NCBI GenBank assembly: GCA_043819075.1
Contig: JBDRFE010000041.1
Coordinates: 1 to 26,393 of the forward strand
Length of the DNA stretch: 26,393 nucleotides
DNA from: an archaeon
Lineage (GTDB): Archaea > Iainarchaeota > Iainarchaeia > Iainarchaeales > 1-14-0-10-31-34
Reading direction: 5' to 3'
The stretch's first letter is position 1. The number at the start of each line of letters is the position of its first letter. This document shows, in pieces, positions 3,001 through 6,000 of this stretch. Made by a program: the position numbers.

Positions 3001-6000
3001 GCCTGAAAAAAAGTTTGTCGGCACATGCGAGTTGTGCCCTTATATGAAAAAAAATACTTTAGAACTTATTTTACAGGCTTTAAGACACCCAAAAAAAGAG
3101 CAGATAATTGAATTGCCGGAAGAAACAATCAGAAAAGCAGGAAAAGCAATTGATTACATGATGAAAACAAAATCTGATTCTAAAGTTTTTGACTGAAATA
3201 ACTGCCTGTTTTTTCCATTAAAATATACCCAAAATCAAATGCAAGAATTCCAAGCCAGATAATCCATTTACCTGAAACAAAAGAAACAATTAAAGCGGTT
3301 AATTCAATTAAAGGCCTTAATTTCATGAATTCGTTCAGCAATTTATTTTTTATTTTATTTTTGTCCACGATTTTGTCGTTAACTATTTCTTCTGCAAAAG
3401 AAACAGAAAAAAATAAGAGCAGGTAAAATACATTTATTTCTGAAACCCCTAAAAAAACAAGTGAAACAGCCATTGAAGCAATTCCAAGGTAATGCCCTGA
3501 AGAATTAATTTTTCCTAAAACAAGAAGCGAAACAACAACCGCAACCCATAAAGCTGAAAGCTCCGGAGAAACAAAAACCACAAAAGCTATAAGGAAGCCG
3601 TAAATTATTCCTGAAATCCTTGCAAAAATTAAAGGCAGTTTTAATCCGTGCTCTTCAATTAAGTCAGTTAATTTTGAAAGCAGGCCTGTAAAAAAAGCTG
3701 CCAGCAAAATAAAAATCATTTTTTATTCCTTTTAACAAGATTTTCTTTCATTGAATAAAACAATAAAGGAAACAAAATTGTTGCATCGCCTTCAACAAAA
3801 ACATGGTCTGCTGTTTCATTTATTTTTCCCCACGAAACAGCTTCTTTTACTTTTGCACCTGAAAGCGAACCATCAGATTCAGTTGCGGTTGAAACATAAA
3901 CAGCATAATTTAATCCGTCTCGAAGGATGTTAATGCCGATTGTGTGGTGTTTTGCAATTCCCCCGCCCAAAATTATTCCAGCAGTCTTGTCTGCTGCAAG
4001 AACCAAGTCAGCTAATTCCTGCATGTCGGCAGTAACATCTATTCCAAATTCCTTGTTCCTCTGCTTAAAAGAAAACAACTGCAATCCAAATGCTCCGTCA
4101 GTTATTGCAGGACAGAAAACAGGAATATTGTTTTTTGTTGCCCAATATAAAATTGAGTTCTCGTCTTTGATTTTTTTTCCTAACTCAAAAATTATTTCGC
4201 TTGCAGAAAGCATTTTTCCTTTTTCTTTTTGCTTTAAAAGCATTTCACTGAAAAAAGGCATGAGTTGTTTTTCTAACCATTCATACCTTTCATTCGGCAC
4301 AAAAACATTTCCTATTCTGTTAATTCCCTTTTTATGAAGTTCTAAGTCGTTTACATCAAAGCTTCCGAGCAGAAAAGGCTTGTGGGTTTTCATTAAGTCT
4401 TCTTCAACTGAACCAACTGAAGTGATTACAGCTGAAACCATTTTATGCTTTAACATAAAAGCAAACAATTCCCTTAAGCCAGAAGAAACCATATTAGAAG
4501 TAAAACTCAGAAAAACAGTGCATTTTTCTTCCTGCATTTTATGAATTATTTCAGCAGCCTTTGAAAGATGTGTTGCCTGAAAGCCAATGGATTTCATTGC
4601 AGAAACAAGCTCTGGAATTGTTTTAGAATCAGTTGTTCCTTTAACAGCCTGAGTTAAGTCATCTAAATTAAGTGTTCCTGTTCCCCTGAAATTCATGTTT
4701 TTTTCTATTTTTTTGGGGAAAAAAAATTCATTTAAAACAGCGACAACTTTTTCTGAATCAAATTCCCTGCAGGAAAAAACATCAACAAAAGCCTCTGCTT
4801 TTTCTGGGTAAGAATGAATTGAAATATGGCTTTCAGCAATAATTACAAAACCTGTTATCCCGCTTTCTTCATTGTGTTTGTGCTTGTATGAAACAACAAC
4901 TGGTTCAGTTAATCTTTTCATTTCAATTGAATCAGAAACCCTGATTAAAAATTCCTTGATTTTTTCCTTATCATTTAATGCTTTTTTATCACAGCCGGAA
5001 CAGTCAAAAAAAATATTGTTTCCTTTTCCGTGAAAACATTTTACTTCCATAAAAGCACCTTTTTGAAAATATTTGCTGCAAGAATTGCAGTCTGGGAATT
5101 AACTTTTTCCGAAGCGCATTCAGTTAAATCAAACCCGATTAAATTGTTTTTGCAGGCTGTTTTCAGCAAAGAAAAAAATTCTTCCGGGTTCATTCCCATC
5201 GGCTCAGGCGTTCCAACTTCCGGCGCAAAACTCGGGTCAAATACATCTAAGTCAACTGAAACGTATACTGGTCCGGAAATTTTTTTTAAAGAAGATTTTA
5301 TTTTCTTTTTTTTTGCAATCTTTTCTTCTTCTGAAGAAGAACTTCTTATCCCTAACTGGATTAAATCAAATTTATTGCTTTTCAACAGTTTGTTTGCCCA
5401 AGTGATGTGAGAGTAAAGTTCTCCCATCCATTCAGGCAATAAATCCCTGTGGGCATCAAAATGAATTACAGTGATTTTTTCTTTTTTTATTTCAGATAAA
5501 GCATTTAATGCTGCAAGAGAAATTAAATGGTCTCCGCCCAAAAACACTGGAAAAATTTTTGGGTTTTCCTTGAACAATTCTTTTACTGTGTCCCTGATTT
5601 TTTCTTCAGTTAATTTCCAGTTTGCCTGTGTTACTTCAACGTCGCCTGAATCAGTGAACTTAAATTTTTCAAAAACATTCTGTTTTGATTGCAAGTCATA
5701 GCCTGGCAGGTTCCTTATTGCCTCTCGGATAAACAATGGGCCATGTTTAACTGATTTTCCTGTTTCACTTGAATCCCAAGGAATACCCAATAAAGCTATT
5801 TCAGCCTGTTTTACTGGATACTCAAAAGGAAAAGTGCGAATAGTGTGAAGCATAAAATTATTCTCTAAAGAAAGGGTTTAAAGGTTAAAGGAAAGAAAAA
5901 GCATTAAAAAATCAAATATTTAAAAAATGCTCGGAAAACAGTATTTTAAGAACAAAAAAAAGGGGGAATTAAATGCACTTAAGAAGCTTAAACGATTTCA

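What a model noticed while it worked through the whole genome (the two positions that open the first line are those of the whole stretch)
3716..5853. Deoxyhypusine synthase fused to a SpeD-type pyruvoyl decarboxylase, next to agmatinase
g00822 (444 aa) joins an N-terminal pyruvoyl-decarboxylase domain of the AdoMetDC/SpeD family (aa 14-123, self-cleavage motif A-E-S-H kept) to a complete deoxyhypusine synthase (aa 147-432); the next gene g00823 is an agmatinase-family ureohydrolase. It is the only DHS on the main genome's contigs, while aIF5A (g00632) needs one, and a normal SpeH (g00495) and a SpeH-SpeE fusion (g00415) exist elsewhere. The fusion argues that in these archaea the decarboxylase (probably arginine to agmatine) feeds the DHS directly, i.e. 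an agmatine-based route to deoxyhypusine/homospermidine, as a single polypeptide.
Evidence so far: pfam.tsv coordinates; Swiss-Prot best hits: DHS of Pyrococcus 51% over aa 141-432, agmatinase/aminopropylagmatine ureohydrolase for g00823; PDB search with aa 1-135: AdoMetDC proenzymes only at E 2e-10 to 8e-7, ES-H site aligned, whereas g00495 is 43-50% identical to SpeH of Aquificales. Call 69: 56 of the best 120 homologue clusters carry both PF02675 and PF01916 (Iainarchaeota, Woesearchaeota, Aenigmatarchaeota MAGs), all named only 'deoxyhypusine synthase' or unnamed.
(Added by a program. Inside this text positions count along the whole contig: contig position 1 is position 1 of the stretch shown here. 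"Call 12" and the like, gene names such as g00115 and contig names such as C1 are that model's own, and its searches are not shown. The text may have been shortened before it was handed on; [...] marks where a part breaks off. The agent that wrote the report below was given it as the finding of a first reader that could run no searches.)

Follow-up and report, generated by a model that had tools for sequence, protein, structure and literature searches.

The report
Archaeal arginine-decarboxylase–deoxyhypusine-synthase fusion module
A small archaeon joins an enzyme that probably makes agmatine from arginine to the enzyme that activates the essential translation factor aIF5A, in a gene module with an agmatinase and an unnamed membrane protein, which offers a direct way to test whether some archaea build this modification from agmatine instead of spermidine.

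Summary
The fusion is real: 444 aa, SpeD-fold domain plus deoxyhypusine synthase (DHS), in 56 of the 120 best homologue clusters. The SpeD-fold domain is most likely an arginine decarboxylase (SpeDA). It best matches the Vampirovibrio SpeD copy I take to be the assayed arginine decarboxylase. It lacks the AdoMetDC and ornithine-decarboxylase motifs carried by the genome's two other SpeD copies, and none of 12 genomes with such a fusion has the other archaeal arginine decarboxylase. The DHS is aIF5A-type, not SpeY, but has lost both anchors for spermidine's leaving group (D243L, N292G), partly as in agmatine-coupling CdmS. It sits beside 53 of 76 DHS of this type and 0 of 31 canonical ones, is itself fused to the decarboxylase or agmatinase elsewhere, and follows DHS in Methanobacteriales. 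Best reading (0.55): arginine to agmatine, then DHS, then ureohydrolase, giving deoxyhypusine-aIF5A. Against: this genome can also make spermidine, and Sulfolobus DHS uses spermidine without D243. The parts and the agmatine model are published; the fusion and membrane partner were not found in my searches.

The parts
5041..5853 (-). Ureohydrolase (agmatinase family), 270 aa, first gene of the unit; metal ligands intact (GGDH, DAHxD, DxDxxD), N-terminal motif divergent from typical agmatinases
   Evidence: PF00491 192 bits; TIGR01230 171.9 vs cut-off 174.3; only ureohydrolase found in the genome; groups weakly (0.70) with Methanobacteriales agmatinases encoded beside aIF5A
3716..5050 (-). Fusion protein, 444 aa: pyruvoyl decarboxylase domain + deoxyhypusine synthase
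   Evidence: 56 of 120 homologue clusters fused; AF2 model mean pLDDT 90.8 with both domains folded and a lower-confidence stretch around aa 121-140
4679..5050 (-). SpeD-fold domain (aa 1-124), probable arginine decarboxylase (SpeDA); self-cleavage Ser74, His79, Cys94
   Evidence: 39.5% identity and 90 bits to the second V. chlorellavorus SpeD vs 48-55 bits to three other anchors; 55 of 55 fused domains give the same best anchor; tree
3743..4633 (-). DHS domain (aa 140-436), aIF5A type; keeps H368/E403/W407/K409 (human H288/E323/W327/K329); has L323, G372, L396 at human D243, N292, D316
   Evidence: PRK03971 382.7 (cut-off 380) and TIGR00321 passed; SpeY PRK02492 151 (cut-off 500); alignments to human and P. 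horikoshii DHS; columns
3180..3719 (-). Unnamed membrane protein ('Mem'), 179 aa, mostly long hydrophobic helices; conserved K16, D19, Y40, K70, D72 (N here), H76, E111, R135, E139, D162, Y165, inferred to lie on one (cytoplasmic) face
   Evidence: no Pfam or NCBIfam hit; 704 clusters at 50% identity; model pLDDT 97.5; conservation; beside 53 of 76 type-X DHS, 0 of 31 canonical
5973..6905 (+). Ornithine carbamoyltransferase, divergent flank; not part of the module (also flanks the canonical DHS on C70 and L028)
   Evidence: TIGR00658 394 bits
2165..3196 (+). Quinolinate synthase NadA, convergent flank; not part of the module
   Evidence: PF02445; same flank on C70, L016, L028

Best explanation
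The three genes are one unit of an agmatine-based route to deoxyhypusine on aIF5A. Step 1 (inferred, about 0.85-0.9): the N-terminal domain cleaves itself at Glu73-Ser74, makes a pyruvoyl group and decarboxylates arginine to agmatine. Step 2 (inferred, about 0.85): the DHS domain is the cell's aIF5A-modifying enzyme and has taken the place of a canonical DHS at this locus. Step 3 (inferred, about 0.6): its donor is agmatine rather than spermidine. NAD+ oxidises the primary-amine end, Lys409 takes the guanidinobutyl chain with release of ammonia (no diaminopropane leaving group, hence no D243/N292 anchors), and the chain passes to the aIF5A lysine. The ureohydrolase then removes urea to leave deoxyhypusine. 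A variant of step 3 goes through bis-guanidino-homospermidine and homospermidine. The fusion ties supply to use but is optional. The membrane protein is a constant partner; my best guess (about 0.35) is a small arginine/agmatine carrier feeding the pathway. What is shown here is anatomy, residues and co-occurrence; no activity is shown.
For: Decarboxylase: 55 of 55 fused domains best match V. chlorellavorus' second SpeD among four anchors, and 0 of 55 have FxPxG, FTCG or QxxETS. The genome's other two copies carry the AdoMetDC (C24) and SpeDC (C19) motifs. PvlArgDC is in 0 of 12 genomes whose SpeD-like domain is fused to DHS or Mem. Of 21 module genomes without an adjacent SpeD-like gene, 8 have PvlArgDC, 7 others a stand-alone SpeDA-like gene, none both. 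No canonical spermidine synthase in 8 of 8 other DHS-fused and 14 of 14 Mem-fused genomes, so AdoMet makes little sense there. DHS: single DHS and single SpeD-like domain in 5 of 5 module genomes checked, including single-contig G001; swaps with canonical DHS between OTC and NadA (C41 and L016 vs C70 and L028). Donor: in human DHS D243 and N292 hold the leaving-group amine of spermidine (PMC7226451) and D243A abolishes activity (PMC10042821); agmatine-coupling CdmS has Phe and Leu at D243 and D316 (PMC10981699); 59 of 59 fused proteins have L/I at 243 and 58 of 59 G at 292, one being truncated. Ureohydrolase found in 30 of 31 module genome handles (two of them one genome) vs 0 of 7 D243-type controls. 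TiaS not found in 41 of 41 genomes and G000 has tRNA-Ile(UAU), so agmatine has no agmatidine sink. Methanobacteriales: dhs-Mem-pyrF in 9 of 9, DHS with L243/A292, PvlArgDC in 8 of 9 and mostly beside aIF5A and agmatinase, SpeE over cut-off in 0 of 9.
Against: S. solfataricus DHS has Thr/Trp/Leu at 243/292/316 and still uses spermidine in vitro (PMC7773846; PMC6105217), so loss of D243 is not diagnostic; D316L also occurs in P. horikoshii. The domain keeps H288, which SpeY (Asn) and the halophile DHS group (PMC5178350) do not, and is only about 27% identical to SpeY. G000 and G012 encode SpeDC-SpeE plus AdoMetDC, so spermidine is available. 6 of the 21 module genomes have no arginine decarboxylase found; one (G052, 89% complete) has dhs-Mem-aIF5A-speB together with the spermidine route. 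Lack of SpeE is not specific: only 10 of 201 phylum genomes pass the cut-off and 0 of 9 other methanogens do. PvlArgDC also occurs in 3 of 5 canonical-DHS controls. 23 of 76 type-X DHS have no Mem within 1.5 kb. A second Mem subgroup lies beside geranylgeranyl reductase or UbiA genes, not DHS. The fused gene of G012, its only DHS hit, has an in-frame stop near codon 358. Haloferax DHS showed no activity with agmatine in vitro. Genomes are related MAGs, so counts are not independent.
Confidence: 0.55

Rival explanations
1. Arginine decarboxylase fused to an ordinary spermidine-dependent DHS. Agmatine goes via the ureohydrolase to putrescine (or via aminopropylagmatine) and on to spermidine, or spermidine is imported, possibly by the membrane protein. 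The fusion is only co-regulation within a polyamine operon.
For: Spermidine route present in G000 and G012; Sulfolobus DHS works with spermidine without D243; H288, E323, W327, K329 kept; passes DHS equivalog models; the decarboxylase moves between partners.
Against: 22 of 22 other genomes with the decarboxylase fused to DHS or Mem lack canonical SpeE, so decarboxylase plus ureohydrolase would end at putrescine, which human and T. kodakarensis DHS do not use as donor. Both leaving-group anchors are lost.
Confidence: 0.27
2. SpeY-like homospermidine pathway as main job: DHS couples two agmatines to G44G, the ureohydrolase makes homospermidine as the cell's polyamine, and aIF5A is modified secondarily or not at all.
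For: speDA-speY-speB clusters are known, also in DPANN MAGs (PMC10407285); same three activities here; hydrophobic residues at 243 and 316 as in CdmS; broken copy in G012 hints at dispensability.
Against: Fails the SpeY model (151 vs 500; a true SpeY beside SpeDA and SpeB in L247 scores 562); lies far from SpeY in the tree; it is the only DHS in 5 of 5 genomes checked; aIF5A is a neighbour in L053 and L056/L120.
Confidence: 0.1
3. The decarboxylase acts on ornithine or AdoMet, and putrescine or spermidine is the donor.
For: TIGR03330 AdoMetDC passed narrowly (79 vs 75.65); Pro82 of the YPE motif is invariant and I could not see which proline Li 2023 marks as AdoMetDC-specific; tree supports at the deep nodes are low.
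Against: Motifs and anchor scores; both jobs already filled by C24 and C19; exclusion with PvlArgDC; no SpeE partner in 22 of 22.
Confidence: 0.08

Closest known systems
SpeDA, AdoMetDC-derived pyruvoyl arginine decarboxylase (Li et al. 2023, PMC10407285), Marinimicrobia/Vampirovibrio/DPANN group
   Same: Fold, S/H/C triad, closest anchor, clustering with a DHS homologue and speB; assayed examples include DPANN proteins PIN84875 and PIN80235
   Different: Here fused to DHS (elsewhere to a membrane protein). The fusions I read of in that paper are SpeD-SpeDC. The partner here is an aIF5A-type DHS, not a SpeY-model protein; whether the paper's DPANN 'speY' are of this type I could not check.
SpeY/CdmS agmatine-coupling pathway (PMC10981699; PMC13625781)
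   Same: ADC + DHS homologue + ureohydrolase; hydrophobic residues at human 243 and 316; E323 and K329 kept
   Different: About 27% identity; H288 kept and G at 292 (N and D in two SpeY); fails PRK02492; described for bacteria making a free polyamine
Haloferax volcanii model of agmatine-dependent deoxyhypusine synthesis (Prunetti 2016, PMC5178350)
   Same: ADC, DHS, agmatinase-like enzyme and aIF5A linked; spermidine absent in most carriers
   Different: Model unproven in vitro; halophile uses PvlArgDC and its DHS group lacks H288; no fusion or membrane partner found in the passages read
Canonical archaeal/eukaryotic DHS (human, P. horikoshii 7CMC, T. kodakarensis, S. solfataricus)
   Same: Whole domain, catalytic Lys, His, Trp, Glu; best PDB hit 7CMC at E 4e-93
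   Different: D243L and N292G; N-terminal decarboxylase domain; membrane-protein neighbour not seen beside D243-type (0 of 31) or W292-type (0 of 5) enzymes

Membership tests
Class 1b SpeD-fold pyruvoyl decarboxylase | Self-cleavage Ser, His +5, Cys +20 | tested here: met
   S74 and H79 invariant, C94 at least 90% in 55 fused proteins; spacing
Bona fide AdoMetDC (SpeD/SpeH) | F-x-P-x-G before the cleavage strand and FTCG, as in verified SpeD domains | tested here: not met
   0 of 55; verified sequences in Fig. S5; present in the C24 copy
Bona fide AdoMetDC (SpeD/SpeH) | The proline marked gamma by Li 2023 | tested here: inconclusive
   Figure not visible. The FxPxG proline is absent, the YPE proline (P82) is kept.
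Bona fide AdoMetDC (SpeD/SpeH) | Spermidine synthase partner in the genome | tested here: not met
   Absent in 22 of 22 other fused genomes; present in G000 and G012, which have a separate AdoMetDC
SpeDC (ornithine decarboxylase) | Diagnostic Gln, Thr, Phe, Tyr | tested here: not met
   0 of 55 with QxxETS; met by the C19 domain
SpeDA (arginine decarboxylase) | Closest to an assayed SpeDA; genome has a ureohydrolase and no other ADC | tested here: met
   Caveat: the V. chlorellavorus copy was matched to the assayed SpeD2 by cluster and motif; accession WP_181385235 did not show.
SpeDA (arginine decarboxylase) | CO2 release from arginine only | not testable with these tools
   needs assay
Deoxyhypusine synthase (aIF5A-modifying) | Equivalog models; catalytic K329, H288, W327, E323 | tested here: met
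Deoxyhypusine synthase (spermidine-dependent, human type) | D243, N292, D316 spermidine anchors | tested here: not met
   L323, G372, L396; but spermidine-using Sulfolobus DHS also lacks them
Deoxyhypusine synthase (aIF5A-modifying) | Transfers a C4 chain to the aIF5A lysine | not testable with these tools
   needs assay
SpeY / CdmS (G44G synthase) | PRK02492 cut-off and clade | tested here: not met
   151 vs 500; control L247 562; tree
SpeY / CdmS (G44G synthase) | Hydrophobic residues at human 243 and 316 | tested here: met
   Leu/Leu here, Phe/Leu in CdmS
Agmatinase-family ureohydrolase | Binuclear metal ligands and family model | tested here: met
   TIGR01230 missed by 2.4 bits; substrate (agmatine, G44G or modified aIF5A) not testable
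Any known transporter or membrane-enzyme family (for Mem) | Profile or fold match | tested here: inconclusive
   no Pfam/NCBIfam hit; best VIA Z 5.5, rmsd 4.2, 116 aligned; no Foldseek hit at E<=0.001

The most novel reading that the evidence does not exclude
A broad archaeal DHS class (L243 with G/A292), found across DPANN and in Methanobacteriales including gut Methanobrevibacter, makes deoxyhypusine from agmatine and works with a new family of membrane protein that is a required component of aIF5A modification (carrier or membrane-bound enzyme). The arginine decarboxylase and the ureohydrolase get fused to either DHS or that protein. This would answer the open question of agmatine-dependent archaeal DHS and add an unknown component to an essential pathway.
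Probability: 0.3. Interest if true: 0.88.

Novelty: new variant of a known kind. Interest (0 to 1): 0.7.

Why it matters
How archaea without spermidine modify the essential factor aIF5A has been open since the Haloferax work of 2016, where the halophilic DHS could not be made to work in vitro (PMC5178350). A 2026 paper asks outright whether archaea encode both agmatine- and spermidine-dependent DHS (PMC13625781). A non-halophilic single polypeptide that would make its own agmatine can be tested with the published E. coli speD/speB strains. The active-site signature and the membrane partner carry the question to cultured Methanobacteriales. It would also re-annotate many proteins now called only 'deoxyhypusine synthase', 'S-adenosylmethionine decarboxylase' or 'hypothetical'.

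Tried and rejected
Complex prediction (2 x DHS domain + aIF5A + Mem, partner Mem): no answer, score 0.00 in two runs, controls not folded; no evidence either way. Fold searches for Mem: nothing above background; Atlas: only hypothetical archaeal clusters and no named hit. D243 loss as a stand-alone marker of agmatine use: rejected, because of Sulfolobus. Agmatine for tRNA agmatidine as the reason for the decarboxylase: TiaS not found in 41 of 41 genomes, tRNA-Ile(UAU) present. OTC as part of the module: rejected, it flanks canonical DHS too. Word-based search with the SpeD domain alone found 8 proteins, none with a source name, so PIN84875 and PIN80235 could not be obtained. Scan of genome contigs with the first Mem alignment could not run for lack of a conserved stretch. 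Mem in the Thermococci-centred phylum sample: 1 of 121, not beside DHS; in the other methanogen genomes 0 of 21. PLP decarboxylase PF02784 and agmatine deiminase PF04371 not found in G000; an arginine-deiminase motif search found nothing. Deep nodes of the DHS, SpeD and SpeB FastTree trees are weakly supported; I use them for grouping, not for order of events.
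Full report
Observation. The minus strand carries three overlapping ORFs in transcription order: 5041-5853 (270 aa), 3716-5050 (444 aa) and 3180-3719 (179 aa). The first overlaps the second by 10 nt and the second overlaps the third by ATGA. 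The 444-aa protein has PF02675 at aa 14-123 and PF01916 at aa 147-432; the 270-aa protein is PF00491; the 179-aa protein has no Pfam or NCBIfam hit. 56 of the 120 listed homologue clusters have both domains, the named ones being Woesearchaeota and Aenigmatarchaeota MAG proteins called 'deoxyhypusine synthase'. An AF2 model folds both domains (pLDDT 90.8). The genome is 90.55% complete; from its relatives I infer a DPANN archaeon, probably Iainarchaeota.

The decarboxylase domain. S74, H79 and C94 match the processing triad of T. maritima AdoMetDC. The genome has two other SpeD-fold domains. C24:4567-4995 has F-K-P-V-G and FTCG like the verified AdoMetDC domains in Fig. S5 of PMC10407285. The window's domain has neither motif. 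Its best phage hit led to V. chlorellavorus, whose speD-speD-speE-speB cluster holds one AdoMetDC and one assayed arginine decarboxylase. The window's domain scores 90 bits (39.5%) against the second copy and 48-55 bits against the first copy, C24 and C19; 55 of 55 fused domains give the same best anchor, and 0 of 55 have FxPxG, FTCG or QxxETS. I assigned the two Vampirovibrio copies by motif, as the accession did not show. The gamma-proline test of that paper is inconclusive because I could not see the figure. Genome content agrees. PvlArgDC, the other archaeal ADC, is in 0 of 12 genomes with the domain fused; G209, with an unfused neighbour copy, has both. Among 21 genomes with the DHS-Mem pair but no adjacent SpeD-like gene, 8 have PvlArgDC, 7 others a stand-alone SpeDA-like gene, none both, 6 neither. 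Canonical spermidine synthase is missing from 8 of 8 other DHS-fused genomes (one, G207, is unpublished) and 14 of 14 Mem-fused ones. Arginine is the likely substrate (about 0.85-0.9).

The DHS domain. It passes PRK03971 and TIGR00321 and fails the SpeY model PRK02492 (151 vs 500; a SpeY control scores 562). It keeps human H288, E323, W327 and K329 but has Leu, Gly and Leu at D243, N292 and D316. In the human structure D243 and N292 bind the amine of the leaving diaminopropane and D316 the transferred end (PMC7226451). Agmatine-coupling CdmS differs from human DHS at 243 and 316, with Phe and Leu (PMC10981699). Among 147 DHS domains three main signatures appear: D243-type (eukaryotes, Thermococci, C70), W292-type (as in Sulfolobus), and L243/G292, here 'type X'. 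59 of 59 fused proteins have L/I at 243 and 58 of 59 G at 292, the other being truncated. Against reading too much into this: S. solfataricus DHS lacks all three anchors and uses spermidine. Type X is the only DHS in 5 of 5 module genomes checked. Between OTC and NadA the locus holds either the three-gene unit (C41, L016) or a lone D243-type DHS (C70, L028). Within the genus G012 and G109 have a type-X DHS with Mem, while G019 (D243-type) and G161 (W292-type, with a related ureohydrolase) have no Mem. This looks like replacement in place, so type X most likely does the aIF5A job. C70 is best read as a co-binned relative (GC 0.319 vs 0.340 for C41 and 0.346 for the bin), though read coverage was not checked. 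One caution: G012's fused gene has an in-frame stop near codon 358.

The missed third gene. The 179-aa protein belongs to a family of 704 clusters at 50% identity. Its model is confident (pLDDT 97.5) but matches no solved fold. Its conserved polar residues sit at helix ends that I infer to face the cytoplasm. In loci fetched by DHS similarity, Mem lies within 1.5 kb of 53 of 76 type-X, 0 of 31 D243-type and 0 of 5 W292-type DHS; 5 further DHS were unclassified or truncated. The decarboxylase is fused to DHS in 10 distinct loci, the window's included, and to the C-terminus of Mem in 17, each beside DHS, among them the complete genome GW2011_AR10 (L115). Of 26 Mem-family proteins scanned (mostly the long ones), 16 carry PF02675 and one an arginase-family domain. 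The order dhs-Mem-aIF5A-speB occurs in L053/L182 and L056/L120. In 30 methanogen genomes Mem was found in 9: all 8 named Methanobacteriales and one unnamed Methanobacteriota MAG. In all 9 it follows DHS and, where the next gene is in view, precedes a gene I read by eye as pyrF; those DHS have Leu at 243 (7 of 9 visible) and Ala at 292. Eight of the 9 have PvlArgDC, mostly beside aIF5A and agmatinase; none has SpeE over cut-off. In the window's phylum 69 of 201 genomes have Mem. A weaker-scoring subgroup lies beside a KaiC-like ATPase and geranylgeranyl reductases, or UbiA and a reductase, not DHS, so the family may have more than one job.

Other content. A ureohydrolase was found in 30 of 31 module genome handles and 0 of 7 D243-type controls, though 4 of 31 D243-type loci have one next door. 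TiaS was not found in G000 or in 40 other genomes, and G000 has tRNA-Ile(UAU), which removes the usual archaeal use of agmatine. PvlArgDC is in 3 of 5 D243-type controls and in neither G019 nor G014, so having an ADC is not exclusive to type X. SpeE passes its cut-off in only 10 of 201 phylum genomes, so its absence is weak evidence on its own. G052 has the module and the spermidine route but no ADC found.

Mechanism. Most likely (0.55): arginine to agmatine; agmatine as donor on DHS Lys409 with loss of ammonia; transfer to aIF5A; urea removed by the ureohydrolase, or the same through G44G and homospermidine. Rivals: ordinary spermidine-dependent DHS in a polyamine operon (0.27), SpeY-like homospermidine synthesis as main job (0.10), another decarboxylase substrate (0.08). 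Every step is inferred. The fusion does not prove channelling, since the domain changes partner.

What is known. SpeDA, including DPANN examples clustered with a DHS homologue and speB, is published (PMC10407285: I read the abstract, first part of Results, sections 4 and 7, first part of the Discussion, term passages and the supplement text; figures not visible). Agmatine coupling by SpeY is published (PMC13625781: abstract, sections 4 and 11, passages, supplement term search; PMC10981699: passages, section 9). The agmatine-to-aIF5A model is published but unproven (PMC5178350: abstract, most of Results, passages, supplement term search). PMC7773846, PMC10042821, PMC7226451, PMC6105217 and PMC9992855: passages only. 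Nine literature searches and three supplement checks showed no mention of the decarboxylase-DHS fusion or of the membrane partner. The library lacks most subscription papers, and bioRxiv supplements were closed. That aIF5A modification is needed in these lineages is assumed from general knowledge and the Haloferax paper.

Verdict. A real fusion and a new variant of a known kind of pathway, larger than first described: a mobile module of decarboxylase, type-X DHS, ureohydrolase and an unnamed membrane protein. Interest 0.7, mainly because it makes a stated open question directly testable and points to an uncharacterised family.

Noticed in passing
G000:C19:22957-24201 (-) (L005): Ornithine-decarboxylase-type (SpeDC) domain fused to spermidine synthase; also in G012, G019, G136, G052. 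I did not see this fusion named in the parts of Li 2023 that I read.
   Followed up: partly
G000:C19:21826-22938 (+): 370-aa ORF that I read by eye as a lysine 2,3-aminomutase (KamA/EpmB)-like radical SAM enzyme; lies next to SpeDC-SpeE here and in G019 and G012. Not profile-scanned.
   Followed up: no
G000:C67:12614-12687: tRNA-Ile(UAU) with no TiaS found in this or 40 related genomes: AUA decoding without agmatidine.
   Followed up: partly
L185, L188, L190-L192, L195; L184, L201: Second Mem subgroup (about 210 aa) in a conserved cluster KaiC-like ATPase - Mem - 125-aa unknown - geranylgeranyl reductase(s), or UbiA - reductase - Mem; possible lipid role.
   Followed up: partly
L224 (phage record MW495066.1) 2483-5261: The speD-speD-speE-speB cluster of 'Microcystis phage MaAM05' has a second SpeD 100% identical to that of a Vampirovibrio chlorellavorus MAG: recent capture or a mislabelled bacterial contig.
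   Followed up: no
L016:5001-6330: Fused gene interrupted by one in-frame TGA near codon 358, no frameshift: error or pseudogene.
   Followed up: partly
L012, L045-L047, P0204: Divergent arginase-family proteins without the GGDH/GGEH motif found beside or fused to Mem.
   Followed up: no
L205 (G161:C10): Genus mate with the same divergent ureohydrolase subfamily beside a Sulfolobus-type (W292) DHS and no Mem: a third DHS type in the genus.
   Followed up: partly
L026, L034, L035, L037, L039, L149: Two DHS homologues side by side, one canonical or type X and one divergent or SpeY-like.
   Followed up: no
G000:C60:22893-23819 (-): Carbamate-kinase-like gene (47% to an AA_kinase gene beside DHS in G013); with OTC suggests part of an arginine deiminase route, deiminase not found by motif.
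   Followed up: partly
window 1122-1934 (+): DUF2080 + nucleotidyltransferase (MNT-like) gene, also on C70.
   Followed up: no
window 12168-13991 (-): 607-aa ORF read by eye as a RelA/SpoT-like HD-TGS-ACT protein, unusual for an archaeon; not profile-scanned.
   Followed up: no
window 22023-22732 (-): PIN-domain and AbrB-like gene pair read by eye as a toxin-antitoxin module.
   Followed up: no
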